In this document: in pieces, positions 21,529 through 43,015 of the stretch
Position numbering within the stretch: the first letter of the stretch is position 1
Layout of the letters: every line of letters begins with the position of its first letter
Assembly (NCBI RefSeq): GCF_009914755.1
Contig: NC_060933.1
Direction: 5' to 3' (one strand)
From: the human T2T-CHM13v2.0 reference genome, Homo sapiens
DNA length: 64,000 nucleotides
Position numbers and translations under genes: made by a program
Notes under the pieces: generated by a model
The model's input: only the letters and a program-made list of their open reading frames with translations
What the model was told of the DNA's origin: nothing
The model's database searches: none

Positions 21529-23790
21529 GCTTCACTCACTCAACTTGCTTTTGAAAAACATTTCCAACTCTATTCTACTTGGTAGACAGCTTTATAGACC
21601 TTAAGCCTTAAGAGATCTTAATCCAGGAGAGAGTAATATTAGAAGAAAAAGGGAGAATAAAAATAAGGATAGATGAGAGATGCAGAAAGAGGACCAGAAA
21701 ACGAGGAAAGAATGGAAGAAGGTGACACAAAAGCACATGGGTGAAGTGGAAGGGAGAAATGAAACATGCCCAGAGGAGAGAACAGGTACCTGGGGGGTGC
21801 ATATTTACCACAAGTCAGAGAAGAAAGTGGGTGGGCAAAACTAACAGTGTAAGTAGTTCCTGGGGGTGAGAAATAGCACTGGATAGTTTCAAGGGAAGAT
21901 GCAAAAGAAAGAGCTAGCAGAAATCAAAGAATCAGGGCAGAGAAAGGATTAAGAACCCATTCCCACAAGAAAGTCAGATACCAGCTGGTGGAGTATTATA
22001 TTGTGAGCCTGAATATGAAGACCAAGGCCAGGTTTTGTCATTTTGTGTACTGATTTATCACTTCATATTCTGATTCCTTATAAGTCTGTAGCCATAAGCA
22101 GGCTGGAGGGACACGGGGGAAGGCAGCAAGCAAGAGCCCAGCAATTGATTTGAGCACTAGTTTTCTACTGTTTGCCTGGGATTGGGTGTTTAATAATGCT
22201 TTTGTTACAATCAGATTTCAGTACATTGAGAACACTTTATTTCTCAATGGAGTTTGTTAAAATGGGACTTTTCTCACCCACAGAATAATAATTGTTTGAA
22301 CATGCATAAATATGTAAAGACATATCAACTTAGGCCATCATAAAGCATGTTAAAAAAATGTGCCCACCGGAAGACCTCCTCCTCTTTCGGCTTTGGAGCC
22401 CCCCCCGCTCTGTTTCTGTATGGGGGAGCTTCTTCCTTCTGTCTTCTCCCTTCCTTCTTGCCTATTAAATGCTCCACTCCTTAAAACCACTCCACGTGTG
22501 TCCGTGTCGTTTTATCTAAACCGGCATGAGGGCCAAGACCCTTGGTGTTCCTTCACTCATCGAAGCCATATCACTTTGGTGCATTGAGGTACAGGAATCT
22601 GAGGTACAGCCTTCCTTCATCAGAGTGGCGACTGTGGGAGCAAGCTTAAAATCTGTTCTGTCATTCCGAGGCACTCTTCGCCTCTATATTAAAATAAATC
22701 AAATAACTCAACAGGCATCCATCAACCTAGTATATACGCTTATTGTTGGCTGCCGTACTCAAGTCTCGGATATAAGGCTTGCTGGGGAGAACTTGGAGAA
22801 CCCCCCATTACCCACAGGTATTGGGAATGTTGGTCATGCTTGAAGTAGCTTCTTTTCACTGGTGACCTTGCCATCACGTGAGGCTGGGAAAAGTTCTGAG
22901 GCAACTGAGAATTTCTGGCCAGGTGTGATTCAAAGGCCTCTGGACCGGACACAGCCTCCAACAGCCCATTCTGGGTGTTGGCAGAGAACCTCAACTATCC
23001 TGTTGCAAAACTCTTCTTCCCTTTCTGTCCGCAGCCTCTTACTCTTTCTCTGCATGAAATGTGCAAAGATTTTTACAGTCTAGGAACAAGGTTACAGCGA
23101 GGTTACTTGATACCACTTCTCTGGCGAGCACATGGTATTTCTAAGCCACCTGGTAGAAATCAGGCTCTAGGCCTCTTCTGTGAATGGAAAGTTTCTGCTT
23201 TTAACAATTAAGAGTAAAACGTCTTCTGCAGCCAAATTTTAATCTCGATATTGTCCCACTGGCAGGAAAATGGCCATTTGGTTCCTACATTCCTTTAAGG
23301 CACCTATTTTGTCTCCTATTAAGACAGTACTTAATTAGGAAGGGTATTTTAATTCTGGAAGTTAACCAGAACCATTTTTCTATGGGTAAATGCTTTAGCC
23401 TGGGCTATAATAGCAGGATACAGAGTTCAATCTAGCTTGCTCCCTCCCTTAAAGGGGCCTTGCCCAATTACATGATTTTTCTTGGAATCTATTTTTTGGA
23501 AGGCACACAGGCCACGCAAGTCTAGGAGGTCAAAGGGAAATAAAAGGCAGAGAACTGATTGCTTGGGGACAGAGTGACTAAGGCCCAAAACTCAGTTCCT
23601 CTGGCGCCATGACTCGGAGGGTCACGGCTGCAAGTCATGTGCGGCACATTTAAGCGGGTGCCGGGAATCCAAGAGCGACGGACAGAGAATAGCTGGGGGG
23701 ACGCCCTCTACTGTTTTCATCTCCATCCTGGATCACATACCGAAAGGAAGGAGACGAAAACGACGCTTTTATTCTCACTTCTCTTTCTAG

Positions 23791-24100
23791 ATGGGTAACA
23801 GATTGTCTTCAACATGCACTCCCCTGGAACATATTTTGAAGCACTGGGACTCCTTCGACCTTGAAACTTTGAAGAAAAAGTGGTTTATTTTCTTTTGCAG
23901 CCATACTGGGCAGGCCCAGGGAAAACAGTTTCCCAAAATTAAAAAGGTAACTTTCAGGGAAGTCATCTGAGGGTCCCCCTTATTTGGGGCCCCTTCAAGT
24001 TCCCTTCTCATTGCAGGACCTTAGGCAAGTAAAGGCAGACTTAGGCCGATTTTCTAACTACCCTAATAGGTATATAGAAGCTTTCCAAAATGTAACTTAG
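23791..24100 (+). pseudogene. Degraded retroviral gag remnant (matrix N-terminus and capsid piece)
   Basis: Manual translation MGNRLSSTCTPLEHILKHWDSFDLETLKKKWFIFFC and DLRQVKADLGRFSNYPNRYIEAFQNVT*, resembling HERV-W/ERV9-type Gag; disrupted. Confidence 0.75.
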
Positions 24101-24844
24101 GTATCTGACCGCACACAGAGTTGGCAAACCCTCACTGCAGCTAAAACAGGCAGCTCTGCACGCAGAAGAGAATTTTGGAGATAAGCAACATGTCTCCTAT
24201 AGTAGGCTAAAAGGGAAGAGAAAAAATAGGGAAGGCAAAGAAACAGGGGAAACACAATTCCCAATAGGAAGAGAGGCAATACCTCTTAACAACCCTAATT
24301 GAATTCCTTTCTACAATGCTTTTCCTTCTTTTGCAGTTTAAAATGGCTTCTATCTCTTTTATAATGTTCTTCCAACCTGGGAAAAACTAATTTTCCAAAC
24401 CTTAAAATGCTTGATGTAGAGTTGAGCTAGCGGGGAGGGAACCCAGAAGCCTGATGCCTGATATGCTGGCAAAAGGGTAAAAATTTCTCACCAGTTGGGC
24501 TTTTGGCTTCTCTCCCTGTGCAAACCTGAAAAAGGGGTAATAAGGATCACTGCTTATGTTCTCAGTAAATGTATAATTAATAAAAAAAGGATTTGTAAGG
24601 TTGGTCTTAAGCTGTAAACAATCTTGTATGCTTTGCGTGTCTTTCTGTATGGATCTACCGAAGAAAGGGTATCTTAGGTTAGGATGCAGGCCCAGGACCC
24701 CATAGGCCTGCTGTTCCAGCCAGCCCAGCAGAACGGTCAGTAACAAACTTGGCTATGGGCCTCCAACTTGTTTCATGTCCTTAGGAACATAATCGGTAAC
24801 CATGTGGCAATACTTTGTTTTAGTCTCTGCCATTTTACCGTGGT

Positions 24845-25273
24845 GGCTGTCTTCTTGTGCTAAGTCAGTGCCTGGGTAAGGGCCACAAAATCAAATAAGC
24901 CAGTTTGTCACTCTGGGTGGTGCCAGCCGATCCATCAAGGGCAGGGTTTATAAAATATCTTAAGCACTGATCTTAAGAGTGGTTTAGGGAGGGTCAAAAT
25001 CTTGTAGCCTCCAGCTGCATGGCTCCTGGGCCATGGTTTCTAATCTTGTGGCTAGTTTCTTGGTCTTCCCCAGGCAAGAGGGAAGTATATCTTGGGAAGC
25101 GGCTGTTATCATCTTTGTTTTAGACTACAGCCTATAAACCAGGCTCCTTCCAAAGTCGGTTCAGCCTACACCCAGGGATGGTCGAGGAGAGCTTAGGGGC
25201 TAAAAATAAAATGGAGTTGTTTGGGTCGGATCTCTTTCACTGTCTCAGTCCCAATTTTGTAATGGTAGTTTCA
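24845..25273 (-). mobile_element. LTR8-like LTR 5' fragment nested inside the ERV
   Basis: Minus strand begins tgaaactaccattacaaaattgggactgagacagtgaaagagatc, like the LTR8 start; truncated near gacttagcacaagaagacagc. Confidence 0.7.
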
Positions 25274-28219
25274 AAAGCTGCCTATCACTCCTTTGAAAAT
25301 ACCTTGCACACTCATGGTTAAGTCATAACCTAATTAAGGCTCATTGATTTCATCTGTGAGGTTACTTTTTTGTAACATTCAAAAGCTGAAAATCTTTACT
25401 GCTTGGTGTAGCTAAAGTCAAGTAACAAGGGATTTAAAAGGATTTTCTTAAAGAGTGCTCAGCTTAATTAAGAGTGGATATTCAAGTTAGAGGTATATTT
25501 AAAAGGCCTTTATGTTTTTCTTTTTTTGGATGTTGTTTTTCTGGAAAAAGGCTCTTTTCTTCTCAGTCAACTGAGTTATTTTTCTCCATTTTTTGTCTTA
25601 CCACTCTTAATGCATGCCTGAAAGGCTCTAAGATAACTTCTGGTAGCATGGGACTCCTTGGGAAAAACAGAGGAGGTGCCACAGACCCCGTTTTGTGGGG
25701 CAGTTGGGGGGGATCCTCTGTTTTCCTCATAAAACCCCAGGAATTAAAAGGAAATTATCCCTCTCAAAATCAAAGGCTCTGTTCTGTTTTGCATTGTGTT
25801 ATCTGATGGTTTTGAGTTTTGGGAGTATCAGAAATTACTTCGCATTATGAGAGAGCTTTGGTGAGTAATAACTAGGTAGAAAATACACTGTAAGAGATGG
25901 CTAATAGTAGTTATGAATCAGAGAAGCACGCTCTGAGCCACCTGGAAAATAAGGCAACATCTCCACCCCACACTGAGGGATGAGACTCCCATCAGGGATG
26001 GGCTGATTACAAAATAAGCCAATTGGCTTTGGGTTGCCTTGAAATGAAGTGCATGGTAGAAGCACTACACCGTCTTCTCCCATGGTATCTATATGGTCTT
26101 TTCTTAAATTAAGCATTGAAATAAAAGCATAGCAAGAAGGTCTTAAGACACTACTCTGTCCTTTAGTAAAAGGGTTACAAAAGGTTTGTAAAAATTTCAC
26201 CTCATGGTCAAATTGATAAAGATAAAATGGAATAATCTATAACGTTTCACTTGAACAAATAAACTAATGCAAGGGTAAAATTTAGCTTTAAACCGAATTT
26301 TCATGTCATAGTAAAGACTAATAAAATGTTTTTGCCTTTTGAGTCATCATTTTGGCAAAATAATTTATGGCAATCTGGAAATTATCCTTCCTGATGCCTG
26401 GCTTTTTGAATGGTTCAGAGGGCCCCTGAAACATTCAGAAAAGAGGTAAACAGGATTATCTGACATATTTAGTCACATGAGATTGCCAAAATGATGTCCA
26501 ATCTTTTTTAAGTTATATTTTGGTGAACACTAATATATGTTCAAAAATTGTATGGGTTTTCTAAAATTCTAATGCCTAAGTATGTGCTATCAATCATAAT
26601 TAAGGGTAAAGTTATTGTAAACCACGAAGATAAATAAAGTTCTTTGCCAGTCATGTTTTTAACTGTTAACTATCCTGGGAATGTTGCCATTCACAGACAA
26701 TTGTTGTCTTGCTTTGTTCCTTCTCAAAAGATGGTTTATAATCAAGCTATATTAAGGACTTTAACAGGTGTTCTCAAATGCAGGTTTGTAATAGCTTTGA
26801 AGATTGTAACACTGAAATAGAGGGAGAATCTACAGGACTCCTAAGAAACTGACATGTTCACAAATATCAAGCAAAACAAAATTTAACTAAGTGGACTGCA
26901 CTCAGAAAGTTAAAGCAAACTTTTTAACTTTCGCTTGGAATATTGCTGATCCTTGTTTAGTTTTTCAGAGTCAAGGAAACTTATTTTAAACTATTTACAG
27001 CCTTTAATAATTGAGTAAGGTATACTCCTGTAAACAAAATTTGGAGCATGTTCATTTTTCTCCGCCTGATTCCTCTAGAATTTGGAGACTATCTGTAAGT
27101 ACTCTTATGGCAATACAGTTGTTTGCATCAGTGCAATAAGAATCAATTTTTCTTTGTCAACAGGACACAGTTGGAAAACTGGTTATCTTATCAAGGCTTT
27201 GACTGAAGGGGTGTGTCTCCCTTTAAGGAATCAAGCTCGACATGTACAGCCAATTAAAGCCCCTTAGGGAGAACTGGCCTACCACCTTGTCTATACAGTT
27301 CCTAACCTGTGGTCAGTGAAGAATGTCACTTTCTAATAGGTCTGGAAGCTATGAGTTTATCTTGGGACCTCAAGAGGAAAGGATCACCCAACTCACAGGT
27401 ATTAGAGGATACAAACCCATGGCTGGGCTCGGCTTTAAAAGTCTTACCTGAAATTCCTTGTGAAACAGCGTTTCATCAAAGCCAATCCAAAAGGCCTATG
27501 TAAAAATAACCATTCTTGCTGCACTTTATGCAAATAATCAGGCCAACTATAAGACTAAAGTTTACTGATAATTACTTTTTACCAAAAGTGAAGACTGAAG
27601 AGAAAAATTTTGCTCCAAAACTTATCATACATTTGTCATTAAATCCTAGTCTCTTGTTTTTCAGCTTTTTGCCTACGTTTTAGACGAACCCTGCTTATTC
27701 CTGTGAATCAACTGGTGATCTGCAGCTTGGAAAAAAGAAAAAAGGGACGGGTAACGTCAAAATGTGAATCAATATGCTAGTTCTGGGCAATTATCTTGCA
27801 ACTTCTGCCGGGTAATGAAAAGTGAGTAAGGTGCCCATAACTCTGAGCTTTCTTTGTTTGGGAAAATAAAACCAAGGAACTTCATAGACCCCCAAAGGGG
27901 AGTTCTCTATCTTGGCAAGTAAAATTTTAGATGGAAATTATCTACCACACCACACTTGTGGGAATTGCTGTCCTCACTCTACTATTTGCAATAGGGTTAT
28001 ACACGGTAGCACCTTCAAACTAAAATATTGGACAGAGAGTTTTCATTGCTGTAGTATTTTGCTTAATTATTATCCTTATAACTGGGATAATAGTTACTGA
28101 CAAAAAGAAAGCGTAAAAGTTTTACTGTCACTAAGTCTGCTAGGATTTTTTATTGGATTTAGTGATGCACTTTTAAATGAAACATGCTGCTTTTGGATTA
28201 ACACCTAGTAAAGGAAAGG

Positions 28220-28536
28220 AAAATCTACAGGTACTTAAAAATCAAATCAAAATTATTAACAGGCTCAGGGAAAATGCCGGCTTCAGCCCTGGGCGGCTAC
28301 AATCCCTCTTTAATAAATTCCAGTCTTCTTTCTGGAATTGGTTAACCCCTTTATTAAGCCCTCTCTTGCTTATATGTCTTGAATTGATATTTGGACGTTG
28401 TATATTCAGTACTATGACTCAAATTGTTTCTTCTCGCCTAAAAGCAATCAAACTCCAAATGGTGCTGCAAACTGAACCGCATGTGGACATGCCATTCTTC
28501 CGAGGACCCTTAAATCAATCCCAGGAGGAGCCCTAA
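28220..28536 (+). pseudogene. Gamma-type env remnant (TM anchor and cytoplasmic tail)
   Basis: ORF 28177..28536: ...FWNWLTPLLSPLLLICLELIFGRCIF...VSSRLKAIKLQMVLQ...RGPL, just upstream of the PPT. Confidence 0.8.
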
Positions 28537-28641
28537 CTGCTGTTCCCCATTCAACGCCCCTTTTAAGTAGGAAGTAGCCAGAAAGAGTCTTCGCCCAAAA
28601 CCCCCTAACTGCAGTTAGTGTGATATTGCCGCAGGGAGGAA

Positions 28642-29207
28642 TGTGGTAGGAGTTATTAAGAAAAAGAAATTATTTTATGCAGATAGAGAGGAAAAGGGGT
28701 CCTTGGGTAGTTTTCGTCTTTTAAAGCATATCCGGAAAAGTTTCTTGTAAAGCCCCAGCTCTTAGTCAGGTGGGCAACCTTTGATATGCAAATGCCGGCC
28801 ATTAGAAACTGGGTCCACCCAACATGGCGATTCCCTTGGCCTTCTTGCCCTTGGCCCATATGCTCCTGGCAACATGGCCGCCCCCACATATCCCCACATG
28901 TGTAGAAATCAGGGTGCCCACATTTGCATATTAAAAGGCTAGGGTGGGAGGACCAGCTTTTTCGCGGGCTACATGAATGACATGCCTGGTCAAACCTATT
29001 CCCTGAGCCCTATGCAAATCAGACACCACCTCCTCCAGCCTCTGCATATATACCTGGCTGGTGTCCACCATACTTGGGGACCTCCTCTTTCAGCTTTAGA
29101 GCCCCATTCCCACCTCTGTCTCTGTACAGGGGAGCCTCTTCCTTCTGTCTTCTCCCTTCCTTCTTGCCCCGTCTTGTATATTAAACTCTCTCCACTCCTT
29201 AAAACCA
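28642..29207 (+). promoter_or_regulatory. ERV 3' U3-R with octamer cluster, YY1-like motif, TATA and ATTAAA
   Basis: ATGCAAAT 28786-28793 and 29012-29019; ATTTGCAT 28922-28929; AACATGGCG 28821-28829; TATATA 29047-29052; ATTAAA 29180-29185. Activity not demonstrable from sequence. Confidence 0.6.
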
Positions 29208-32086
29208 CACACACACACACATACACATACACACACACACACACAAATGTGCCCACTAAGAATTATTACAGGGGTATAAAAAAGCATGCTGTACATTCTT
29301 CTTACACAAAGAACACATTGGAGAATAAATTAGCATGGAAAATGGTCTCTTTGAAGGCACAATAACTATTGTTTCCTTATTAAATCCAGTTTTCCAATTA
29401 AGTGGAGCCTCACTGATCCACACTATGGCTGGGAAGTCCCACAGAGAATTTCTGAACTTTGTAGATTAGCGAAACACTGTAATTGGGGGGAAAAAATCAT
29501 GACACAGACTGCAGGAGAATAGAAAAATGACTGCCATTGTGTTTATTTTGATAACCGGATTTAATTTTTAATTATTGAAATGCTTCATAATGGATAAACA
29601 TGCTGTAAACTTTGGCAACAGTCATGAAAGGATAGAGACAGGGAATTAATTTATTGAGCACCTACTAAGTACTGAGTACTCACTGTGCTACTAGCTATCT
29701 TGAGTGATCCAGATAGCACTTCACTAATAATAGCCATGGTTATTATTCCCAATGTTCAGAGAAAAAAACCTGAGCCCCAAAGGGGTTAAATGATTTGCCC
29801 CAGGGAGCACAGCTTGTAGGTGGCTGAGCTGAAGTTCTAGCCTTTTTTATGTCATAGAAAAAGCTTAATCATAATTTAGTTTTGCTGTGTGTGTCAATTT
29901 CAAAAGGAATTCTCATCATTTTCAAATTGAGTATTCTGAATGCCATTGTTGTAGACAAAATTGGCATTGCTCATCTGTACTTCCATTACAACGTCAAAAT
30001 AAAACAAAACCATGGAATATTCTGATCACGAAAGCTACCATCAAGTAATCATTTTATCTGGACTTCTAGTTGAGCAGCTGAAAGTTATGAATTTTGTTGA
30101 ATATTTTAAATCTATTTTTATCTGTAGGACATGACTAGATACTTGTCCAAATTGAGAATGTAAACATCAAACAGACCAGGTAATCATTTGAGTTCCTCAA
30201 ATATTGAAGTTTCACTGATATCGGAGTTTTAAATATAAAAATGCTTGCCAGCACACACACACACACACACACATACACACAATACTTGTTTCATTGGCAT
30301 GCACACACTTATTTCTAGAAACTCTGAATAAAGCTTTACACTTATTACCGCCCCATCTCACTCCCTCCCTAGTCCCTACCAAATGTTTGGGTCTTATTTC
30401 CTCCTAGTTTCAGTAAATGTTGAAAGAACCAGAATTCATTTGGTGATCAATAAGCAGTTTGTAAGGGTCTACAATGAGTCAGATACCTAGGTCTAGAAAC
30501 ATTGAAATGAATAATTCCGGGTCCCTACTGTCAAGGAGATCAGAGCTGATCCAATAAAAGAAATAGTGGTCTTACTTTACAGAAAGTTCAACAACAAAGA
30601 TATGTGTAAACAGATGCCAGAGCATATAAAAGGACAAGCTGATCCTGCCTGAGGGTTTGTGGAATGGGGTCGTCAGAGGATTCTTGGAACAGCTGATGTT
30701 AGAGCTGACAGCAAGTCCATAGTCTGGAGAGGGACTAAGACAAAGTTACCACCAACCAGAAGAGGGAGAATGGGAAAAACAGATGCTAGATTAATTTCAC
30801 TAAGAATACTGCTACTATATTAATGAGTTTTAATTTATCGCAACTATAAGGATTTGGTTAATCACCTCTATTTGTAAAAGGCCATGGGAGGGGTTGAGGA
30901 TAATCTAGCCCAGAAAAGATGAAGGTTGGAGCTGAAGCAATGGCAGTGAGGTGGGGAGGTAGAGATAGATCAGAAAAACTCGTCAAGCAGATTTAGTAAA
31001 CCTGCTGACTGATTGGTTGTGCTGACATTAGAGAAAGGAGTCAGGGATGACTTCAGAGATTCCAGCTAGTTATTTTGTGCAAGTTTTTAGGGACACATGC
31101 TAGATGTATTTTGGTCATAAGTTTAAAACGCTGATGATACATACATGTAAAGATGTCAGATAGAGAGGTAGGACACACATCTGAGCTGGATAAACATTTA
31201 GGGGCCAAAGATATATGGTAATGAAGAGAGCAAATTTGTAGATCTCCCTCTGTCCCCTTCTCTTTCTCTTTCTAACATAAATTAAGAAGATGAAAGCAGA
31301 GAAAAACATGATAAGCATCTTTAGAAACCTATCCATCACAGGGAATAAACTTATAACTAGATCTACAGAGTTTAGTTTGACCAATTTGCCCAGATTCAGA
31401 AATAATTATGCTGCACTAAAGTTTTCATTACAGAGAAATCTGACATCTATACTTGTGTATATGAAGAGCATGATTTATAAAATATATAACAACGAAAGAA
31501 GAAAAAAGAAGTCCTGAATTTTTCATTTTTAAAAAGGCCCATAGGCTACTAAAAGTGATACGGTATCCTAGTCAGAAACATAACTCAGATTGGATAGATA
31601 CACAGAAGACTTAGAAGTAAATCCTATTAACTGTTACCTTTTTGAACTATCAAATAAACTAAGGTTTCAAGCAAAAACTTAATCTAGAAATGACATATAA
31701 TACATTGATAAAAAGAGGGAGGTGTTATTTGAAAAGGAATTGACCTGTTAGTCAAAGAGCAGATGAACTGAGTTTTCTCATTCATTCTCTATTCCTTCTT
31801 AATAGGGATTACCTATTGCCTTCCATTTCTGAGCTCTCTGGAATCATTCTTCCTGATCATCTCCTTCTGTTACACTCTTCTTAGCACACAGATCAATAGC
31901 TCAATCATCTATGCATTAGCTAATGTCAGTGTCTATGACATTATGGGAAGGCATTATGTGACAAATAGGACCCTTGCTTTAAGCAGTCATTCTAGAACAG
32001 GTTGGAAATTTGCTTGGATCCATATACAGGCTATCTTCCAAGATAATAGGTACAAAATGCCTAGGAAAATGTACGTACATAGTAGG

Positions 32087-42211: not shown

Positions 42212-42317
42212 GTGCTCACCTTGGCAGCACATATACTAAAATTGGAATGCTACAGAGAAGATTAGCATAGCCCCTGCACAAGGATGACACACAAATTCGG
42301 AAAGTGTTCCATATTTT
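42212..42317 (+). pseudogene. U6 snRNA retropseudogene, full length, fused to an L1 3' end
   Basis: gtgctcaccttggcagcacatatactaaaattggaatgctacagagaagattagc...gttccatatttt; 106 nt; ACAGAGA box intact. Confidence 0.95.
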
Positions 42318-42527
42318 GGGTGAACAACACACACTGGGGCCTGTCGGGGTTGGGGGTGGAGGGAGAGAGAACATCAGAAAAAATAGCTAATGCATGCTGG
42401 GCTTACTACCTGGGTGATGGGTTGATAGGTACAGCAAACCACCATGGACATGTTTACCTATGTAACACACCTGCACATCCTGCACATGTACCCCAGAACT
42501 TAAACACACCAAAAAAATTTTGTTAAA
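42318..42527 (+). mobile_element. L1PA (about PA8-11) 3'UTR half of the U6/L1 chimera
   Basis: gaacaacacacactggggcc...ccccagaacttaaa; TSD aataaaagaattgt flanks U6 and L1 together. Confidence 0.9.
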
Positions 42528-43015
42528 AATAAAAGAATTGTAAACAAAAGTCATCTCTAACTTCAATGGTCTCTGTGATTCAGGAAGGCTGTCGAAGGCT
42601 ACTGCAGTTCTCAAACTGGTGAGCCCTGGGTCAAATGTGGCCCTCAGAAATATTTGGTAGCTAGCACAATACGTTTCACTACAAGTTTTAATTGTTTTCT
42701 ATATTCAAGAATTTAAGCATTTTACCAAAAATGTATCATTTTCCAATTTCTCTTGGCACATGAGTGCTACAGCAACAGTGGGCACACTTGTATCCTTGCA
42801 GGGCAGTGGTGGGCATGAGCTGAGTGGCAGCTGCTTCCTGAGGGGATGGCTCTTTCTTCAGTTTGCCACAGTGCCCCTCAGTGGGGTTTGCTCATTGACC
42901 CCACCTGCCTGGCTCCTCTGGGCAGTGAGTGTGCATCCTGATTTACAGTGATTGATTCTTTTCTGAGGCAATGAATGTACAAAGGAACCTGAGGGTTTAG
43001 GGTAGGGGGTTCTTA

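What the first reader, a model, noticed from the sequence alone, without database searches (positions are those of the whole stretch)
22350..29256. ~6.9-kb endogenous retrovirus that appears to be an L1-retroposed mRNA (processed ERV) rather than an integrated provirus
Seen: the left end has only R-U5 (no U3) and the right end only U3-R (no U5). The 5' end aligns ~28 nt downstream of the TATATA in the 3' U3, where a TSS is expected. The 3' end stops ~22 nt after ATTAAA and runs into a (CA)n tail. Both ends carry an exact 12-bp repeat, aaatgtgcccac (22356-22367, 29245-29256), and the left copy sits in tt|aaaaaaa. Established: retroviral integrase gives complete TG..CA LTRs and 4-6 bp TSDs, whereas L1 target-primed reverse transcription gives TT/AAAA sites, longer TSDs and tails. 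Processed ERV copies are well known for HERV-W. Inference: a full-length transcript of a non-HERV-W, non-autonomous ERV1 was mobilised by L1, and its poly(A) later decayed into a CA microsatellite.
Basis: partly seen in the sequence, partly recalled or inferred. Interest (0 to 1): 0.8.

Follow-up and report, generated by a model that had tools for sequence, protein, structure and literature searches.

The report
L1-copied transcript of ancient retrovirus
This 6.9-kb stretch in a FREM1 intron is a DNA copy of a full-length RNA of the old LTR9B/HUERS-P3b retrovirus family, pasted in by the LINE-1 machinery, and roughly a hundred sister copies carry the same signature, a behaviour that reviews credit only to HERV-W.

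Summary
The element (22368-29208, + strand, antisense in a FREM1 intron) runs R-U5 ... U3-R. It starts about 27-29 nt after the TATATA of its own U3 and stops 22 nt after ATTAAA. A (CA)20 tract follows. It is bracketed by an exact 12-bp repeat, up to 16 bp if the A-run is counted, at a TT|AAAAAAA site.

The truncation points are the family's real transcript ends. Ten independent U3-less copies start within about 5 nt of the same G-run. 18 of 19 other internal-bearing 3' ends stop at the same R end and lack U5. All ten solo LTRs keep U5. A genome-wide pattern for "R end + A-tail" gives 107 hits (control 0). Siblings also have 8-13 bp duplications, and at least five are copies of a spliced RNA.

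The family is LTR9B/HUERS-P3b, named indirectly through the table of Vargiu et al. 2016; it is not HERV-W or MER41. Its primer-binding site fits tRNA-Gly(GCC).

My literature searches found no account of L1-made copies for this family. A 2017 review calls HERV-W the sole such group. I therefore rate it a new member of a known kind, of moderate to high interest. The orthologous empty site could not be checked.

The parts
22350..22351 (+). TT immediately 5' of the A-run: the L1 endonuclease-type target TT|AAAA
   Evidence: read directly
22352..22367 (+). 5' target-site duplication. The exact 12-mer AAATGTGCCCAC is 22356-22367; it reaches 16 bp if the A-run that would merge with the tail is counted
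22368..22490 (+). 5' R, beginning at the family's transcription start. It contains ATTAAA at 22464-22469
22491..22573 (+). U5, ending TATCA as in all solo LTRs of the family
22577..22594 (+). Decayed primer-binding site. 11 of 18 positions fit the family's tRNA-Gly(GCC)-complementary site
22620..22635 (+). Remnant of the family's leader splice donor (exon 1 ends at 22627); the motif is degraded in this copy
   Evidence: by comparison with L034, L049 and L053
22574..28641 (+). Internal region of HUERS-P3b type. It has no Pfam-detectable gag, pol or env domain. The only open stretches that look (from recall) like a gag start (23791-23970) and the tail of an env transmembrane part (28177-28536)
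28426..28449 (+). Pyrimidine tract plus remnant of the tandem splice acceptor used by the spliced sister copies (junctions after 28441 or 28444); degraded in this copy
28630..28641 (+). Polypurine tract directly before U3
   Evidence: LTR start confirmed by solo LTR matches beginning at query 101-103
28642..29075 (+). U3 of the 3' LTR (starts TG), with TATATA at 29047-29052
29076..29208 (+). 3' R with ATTAAA at 29180-29185. It ends 22 nt later at the family's poly(A) site; no U5 follows
29206..29245 (+). (CA)20 tract in the position of the poly(A) tail, inside the duplication
   Evidence: parallels in L014 and L020
29245..29256 (+). 3' copy of the target-site duplication

Best explanation
A full-length, unspliced, polyadenylated transcript of an LTR9B/HUERS-P3b element was reverse transcribed and inserted by LINE-1 target-primed reverse transcription. 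HUERS-P3b is a non-autonomous ERV1 of the HUERS-P group. The transcript began at the R start of the source 5' LTR and was cleaved at the R end of its 3' LTR. Insertion was at a TT|AAAAAAA site in what is now a FREM1 intron.

Shown:
- The R-U5...U3-R layout.
- The agreement of both ends with the family's transcript ends.
- The 12-16 bp duplication and the target motif.
- The same signature in many siblings, including copies of spliced RNA.

Inferred:
- That L1 ORF2p was the enzyme.
- That the (CA)n arose from the junction of ...ACCAC with the poly(A) tail.
- That the event dates to early anthropoid times.

The copy has no promoter at its 5' end and is a dead retrocopy. It keeps a U3-R at its 3' end that points into the flank.
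For: 1. Layout and junctions.

2. 5' ends. In 10 distinct places, including this one, R-U5 is not preceded by U3. All start within about 5 nt at the same G-run, 26-29 nt after the TATA motif, and the upstream DNA is unrelated and A-rich (loci).

3. 3' ends. The U3-R search gave 30 loci.
- 20 have internal sequence before U3. Of the 19 other than this one, 18 stop within the last 5 nt of R and run into A-rich or simple-repeat tails, up to A24. Only L027 continues into U5.
- All 10 loci without internal sequence keep U5.

4. Genome-wide pattern counts.
- R end plus A-tail, up to 3 mismatches: 107 hits, reversed control 0.
- R-U5 junction: 284 hits, control 0.

5. Duplications. Of 8 pairs examined, exact shared words sit at both junctions in four:
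- this element: 12 bp
- L046: 12 bp
- L033/L013: 10 bp
- L010: 8 bp

L056/L014 share 13 bp with one mismatch, read by eye.

6. RNA intermediate. At least 5 places join the leader donor (...ACTG|GTGAGT in unspliced siblings) to a pyrimidine-tract acceptor 200 nt before U3. They still begin at R and end at R plus tail.

7. CA-type tails recur: L014, L020 with (CA)22 then A8, and two more rows.
Against: - The tail here is (CA)20, not poly(A).
- No orthologous empty site could be examined.
- The first five bases at the 5' junction fit the U3/R boundary only loosely.
- In 3 of the 8 sibling pairs no convincing duplication was found.
- The sampled siblings are the best-scoring 40 candidates of each search, so they are biased towards close relatives of this copy. 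In the 5' search 19 of 30 loci do have U3, so true proviruses and solo LTRs of the wider group are common.
- The family name rests on matching my loci to rows of a published hg19 table, not on RepeatMasker.
Confidence: 0.92

Rival explanations
1. An ordinary integrase-made provirus that later lost its 5' U3 and its 3' U5 through two independent deletions.
For: Old proviruses are often damaged, and true proviruses of the group exist (L027/L050, L032, L034-L038).
Against: - Both deletions would have to end exactly at the transcript start and the poly(A) site.
- They would also have to leave a 12-bp direct repeat at the new edges.
- They would have to recur in 18 of 19 sampled 3' ends and in 107 pattern hits.
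- No 4-6 bp duplication next to TG..CA ends exists here.
Confidence: 0.02
2. A cDNA made by a retroviral reverse transcriptase without strand transfers, or any free cDNA of the transcript, was captured at a chromosome break by end joining rather than by L1.
For: It would also give an R-U5...U3-R layout. Capture of reverse-transcribed RNA at breaks is reported (title and abstract of PMC4516963 seen in the listing only).
Against: - End joining does not make 12-16 bp duplications.
- It does not select TT|AAAA. Siblings also show T-rich|A-rich sites and 8-13 bp duplications.
- The tails sit exactly where L1 priming needs them.
Confidence: 0.04
3. A DNA-level (segmental) duplicate of another processed copy.
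For: Some family copies are duplicated at DNA level; one example is the mirrored pair on contig 24 (L042/L043).
Against: - The best sibling matches to the internal region are only 88-90% identical.
- The flanks are unique.
- The duplication brackets exactly the transcript.
Confidence: 0.01

Closest known systems
HERV-W (HERV17/LTR17) processed pseudogenes made by L1
   Same: R-U5...U3-R layout, 3' tail, long duplications, T|A-rich targets, and many copies per family. HERV-W has 135 of 213 loci of this kind (passage of PMC5537654 seen); here there are at least about 100 3' ends.
   Different: - Different family and supergroup (HUERSP, LTR9B).
- tRNA-Gly-type primer-binding site instead of the W type.
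- The source is a non-coding, non-autonomous element.
- Copies are older: 72-90% identity among them.
- Spliced-RNA copies are present.
- No 9p22 or 9p23 locus appears in the main text of the HERV-W catalogue paper.
Ordinary processed pseudogenes of cellular mRNAs
   Same: Same inferred enzyme and the same hallmarks: a start at the transcript start, an end at the poly(A) site, a tail, a duplication, and loss of introns in the spliced siblings.
   Different: The template is a retroviral genomic RNA. The copy therefore carries its own promoter (U3) at the wrong end and mimics a damaged provirus.
Spliced HERV-H elements in genomic DNA (Goodchild, Freeman and Mager 1995; recalled, not seen)
   Same: Genomic copies of spliced retroviral RNA.
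   Different: As I recall, those keep complete LTRs and were made by the retroviral route. The spliced copies here begin at R and end at R plus tail.
MER41 (HERVW9 supergroup)
   Same: Non-autonomous ERV1 of similar size and age. This was my first guess, from recall.
   Different: Rejected. MER41 rows of the Vargiu table carry a different primer-binding site, of type W. This family's site retrieves HUERSP3 / LTR9B / HUERS-P3b rows.

Membership tests
L1-mediated processed pseudogene (retrocopy) | 5' end at the transcription start of the source gene | tested here: met
   The start is 27-29 nt after TATATA. Ten independent U3-less copies start within about 5 nt of each other.
L1-mediated processed pseudogene (retrocopy) | 3' end at the poly(A) site, 10-30 nt after the signal | tested here: met
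   The end is 22 nt after ATTAAA. The same end is seen in 18 of 19 sampled siblings and in 107 pattern hits.
L1-mediated processed pseudogene (retrocopy) | Poly(A) tail | tested here: inconclusive
   This copy has (CA)20 in the tail position. Siblings have tails up to A24, and L020 has (CA)22 then A8.
L1-mediated processed pseudogene (retrocopy) | Target-site duplication of about 7-20 bp | tested here: met
   12 bp exact, up to 16 bp. It occurs only at the two junctions in 64 kb, and no shuffle had a match.
L1-mediated processed pseudogene (retrocopy) | Insertion at a TT|AAAA-like site | tested here: met
   gcatgTT|AAAAAAA. Siblings show T-rich|A-rich sites.
L1-mediated processed pseudogene (retrocopy) | Empty site with one copy of the duplicated word in species that lack the insertion | not testable with these tools
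   No primate genome other than the window's own is held.
Integrase-made provirus | Two complete LTRs (U3-R-U5, TG...CA) | tested here: not met
   No U3 on the left and no U5 on the right.
Integrase-made provirus | 4-6 bp duplication next to the LTR ends | tested here: not met
   The duplication is 12-16 bp and lies next to R and the tail.
LTR9B / HUERS-P3b (HUERSP group, ERV1) | LTR and leader homologous to copies annotated as LTR9B / HUERS-P3b | tested here: met
   Indirect. The leader is 81-83% identical to L037 and L034. Their primer-binding-site strings, strand and approximate positions match the hg19 rows chr16:29720443 and chr2:229164609, labelled LTR9B / HUERS-P3b.
LTR9B / HUERS-P3b (HUERSP group, ERV1) | Family primer-binding site, complementary to the tRNA-Gly(GCC) 3' end | tested here: inconclusive
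   Siblings fit. This copy keeps 11 of 18 positions.
LTR9B / HUERS-P3b (HUERSP group, ERV1) | RepeatMasker/Dfam assignment | not testable with these tools
   No repeat library is on hand.
HERV-W | Listed among the 213 catalogued HERV-W loci; W-type primer-binding site | tested here: not met
   No 9p22 or 9p23 locus appears in the main text of PMC5016936 (its supplements were not read). The primer-binding site differs from the W-type string seen.

The most novel reading that the evidence does not exclude
LTR9B/HUERS-P3b is a second human ERV lineage that L1 amplified on a scale like HERV-W. It has roughly a hundred or more retrocopies of both full-length and spliced RNA. This has gone unreported because catalogues did not separate processed copies from proviruses. 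It contradicts the published statement that HERV-W is the sole HERV group mobilised by L1.
Probability: 0.55. Interest if true: 0.7.

Novelty: new member of a known kind. Interest (0 to 1): 0.6.

Why it matters
Reviews state that HERV-W alone among HERV groups was mobilised by L1 (PMC5537654: abstract, and the introduction passage seen). A second, older and unrelated family with the same habit has several consequences.

- L1 capture of retroviral RNA was not a peculiarity of HERV-W.
- Many "damaged proviruses" of this group are really promoterless retrocopies. This matters for copy counts, for LTR-LTR dating and for reading HERV expression data.
- The retrocopies record the exact transcript start, poly(A) site and a splice pattern of a virus-like element that was active tens of millions of years ago.

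Tried and rejected
- **MER41 as the family name.** This was my guess from recall. It was rejected on the primer-binding site.
- **Pfam on the three forward frames, with X at stops.** No family at E up to 0.1, so there is no domain-based classification.
- **Vargiu supplementary table 1, searched by hg19 position 1482x-1483x.** No chr9 row. That program needs coding motifs.
- **Locus-style names at 9p22.3 in papers.** No paper.
- **Fetching 10 kb upstream of 14 processed 3' ends, to map 5' truncation.** I used table-only searches instead. These tie gag-region and 3'-region matches to the same places for several copies with U3-less 5' ends and tailed 3' ends: contig 12 at 43.66 Mb, contig 6 at 22.24 Mb, contig 13 at 80.75 Mb and contig 23 at 72.69 Mb.
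- **Earlier scan notes.** Closed.
- **Pavlicek et al. 2002.** Not held. Costas 2002 was not looked up. Either may mention other families.
- **Literature searches for this family together with processed pseudogenes or L1**. No description found. Passages read in PMC5753468, PMC3597737 and PMC11359688 do not mention it.
- **A second splice form** suggested by L010 and L056 was not resolved.
Full report
**What is in the sequence**

The left flank reads ...gcatgTT|AAAAAAATGTGCCCAC, and the element begins at 22368. From there to 22490 the sequence matches the stretch 29076-29208 at the right end. The match is 107 of 118 ungapped positions, with four gaps. This shared segment is R.

On the left, R continues into 83 bases of U5 that end TATCA at 22573. 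A decayed primer-binding site follows.

On the right, R is preceded by 434 bases of U3. U3 begins with TG at 28642, directly after a purine tract, and carries TATATA at 29047-52. There is no U3 on the left and no U5 on the right.

The right R stops at 29207/8, 22 nt after ATTAAA (29180-85). It runs into (CA)20 and then into AAATGTGCCCAC. That 12-mer occurs only twice in the 64-kb window, at the two junctions, and in none of 100 shuffles. Counting the A-run that would merge with a tail, the duplication may be 16 bp.

**Are the truncation points the family's transcript ends?**

The window's own genome could be searched. I used the 3' internal/U3/R piece as query (40 of 853 candidates scored, 30 loci kept).
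- 10 loci lack internal sequence, so they are solo or 5' LTRs. All 10 continue from R into U5 and end TATCA.
- 20 loci have internal sequence before U3. Of the 19 other than this one, 18 stop within the last five bases of R and run into A-rich or simple-repeat sequence. The tails range from A24, A19, A17 and A14 down to a few A's in L026.
- Only L027 continues into U5.

I then used the R-U5-leader piece as query (30 loci).
- 19 loci have U3 directly upstream.
- 3 are unclear.
- 8 have none.

Adding the short elements from the first set gives 10 distinct places, including this one, where R-U5 is not preceded by U3. All ten begin within about five bases at the same G-run. In this element's own U3-R that run lies 26-29 nt after the TATA motif. 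The DNA upstream of each is unrelated and A-rich.

Two genome-wide patterns were counted, each allowing up to three mismatches.
- The last 26 bases of R followed by A's: 107 matches, none for the reversed control.
- The same R end followed by the first U5 bases: 284 matches, none for the control.
- One of the 100 listed rows is really an R-U5 junction and appears in both lists.

Both ends of the element therefore lie where this family's RNA starts and ends.

**L1 hallmarks in the siblings**

For eight elements with both ends in hand, exact shared words sit at both junctions in four:
- this element: 12 bp
- L046: 12 bp
- L033/L013: 10 bp
- L010: 8 bp

L056/L014 share 13 bp with one mismatch, read by eye. 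For L053/L021, L060 and L029 nothing convincing was found. The duplications begin with A's and are preceded by T's, as here.

**Proof of an RNA intermediate**

Several short siblings consist of three parts: R-U5, then about 45-50 bases of leader, then the last 200 bases before U3 followed by U3-R and a tail.
- In unspliced siblings the leader breakpoint reads ...ACTG|GTGAGT.
- The downstream breakpoint follows a pyrimidine tract and a tandem TAG|AAG| acceptor, which 10 of 13 unspliced siblings keep.
- Four places carry one junction (control 0). L046 uses the acceptor three bases further on.
- Both motifs are degraded in the window's copy, which is a copy of the unspliced RNA.

**The CA tract**

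R ends ...AAAACCAC.
- L014 has a short CA run and then A's.
- L020 has (CA)22 followed by A8.
- Two further rows begin CACAC or CATACAC.

CA-type tails at this junction are therefore recurrent in the family. That supports an origin at the junction between R and the poly(A) tail. This step is inference.

**What family is it?**

Pfam finds nothing in the three forward frames read with X at stops. The only recognisable open pieces are a gag-like start and an env transmembrane tail (the resemblance is recalled).

The primer-binding site in siblings is the exact complement of the 3' end of tRNA-Gly(GCC) plus CCA. I checked this against a tRNA gene found in the same genome.

I searched that string in the hg19 master table of Vargiu et al. 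2016 (PMC4724089, supplementary file 1, selected rows only). It retrieves rows of the HUERSP3 group whose Repbase similarity strings read LTR9B / HUERS-P3b / HUERS-P3. Two rows match my loci L037 and L034 in primer-binding-site string, strand and approximate position. The leader of this element is 81-83% identical to those loci.

MER41, my first guess, has another primer-binding site. The HERV-W catalogue paper has no 9p22 or 9p23 locus in its main text.

A passage of PMC3597737 describes HUERS-P3b as replication-defective, mosaic and flanked by LTR9B. It also reports one insertion shared by New World and Old World primates. That places family activity before that split. The best siblings of this copy are 88-90% identical. 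The age is inferred and not measured.

**Mechanism**

The best explanation (0.92) has four steps.
1. A source element was transcribed from its 5' LTR.
2. The RNA was cleaved and polyadenylated in the 3' R.
3. L1 ORF2p nicked the bottom strand at TT|AAAA and primed on the tail.
4. The copy was fixed with a 12-16 bp duplication.

The rivals fail on the precision and recurrence of the ends, on the duplication, and on the lack of a near-identical donor. These rivals are two deletions in a provirus, capture of a free cDNA at a break, and a DNA-level duplicate.

**Comparison and novelty**

In kind this is what is known for HERV-W: 135 processed pseudogenes among 213 loci (passage of PMC5537654). That review states that HERV-W is the sole HERV group mobilised by L1. 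Vargiu et al. say they did not separate processed pseudogenes from proviruses.

My searches found no report for LTR9 or HUERS-P3. The library lacks most subscription papers. Pavlicek 2002 was not held, and I could not see the notes in Repbase or Dfam.

I therefore file the locus as a new member of a known kind. I put the chance that the family-wide phenomenon is unreported at a little over one half.

**Limits**
- The samples are the best-scoring hits and not a census.
- The family name is indirect.
- The orthologous empty site is untested.
- The 5' start is placed to within about 3 nt.

Noticed in passing
L022, L029, L046, L060 (same place as L019); contig 10 near 98.36 Mb: About 1-kb retrocopies of a spliced RNA of the same family: R-U5 and a short leader joined to the last 200 bases before U3, then U3-R and a tail. 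The donor and the tandem acceptor are canonical in unspliced siblings.
   Followed up: partly
L032-L038, L049, L053 and others just after U5; window 22577-22594: The family's primer-binding site is the exact complement of the tRNA-Gly(GCC) 3' end. However, the group is named HUERS-P, and most rows of the Vargiu table that I saw label the site P (one row G).
   Followed up: yes
L010 and L056, downstream of the leader: Both share a different sequence after the leader. It may be another splice form or a common internal deletion.
   Followed up: no
L014, L020; contig 2 near 58.90 Mb; contig 1 near 241.82 Mb: CA-type tracts sit in the tail position in several independent retrocopies. L020 keeps A8 behind (CA)22.
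   Followed up: partly
L042/L043 and two further mirrored hits on contig 24 near 19.5-19.6 Mb: Identical family copies lie in opposite orientation about 60-90 kb apart. They look like DNA-level duplicates in an inverted repeat.
   Followed up: no
L022, inside R-U5: The R-U5 of this spliced retrocopy is split by about 330 bases of foreign sequence, presumably a later insertion.
   Followed up: no
window 42212-42543: The hub's table lists a U6 snRNA pseudogene directly followed by a masked repeat. It may be another L1-made insertion in the same gene. I did not look at it.
   Followed up: no
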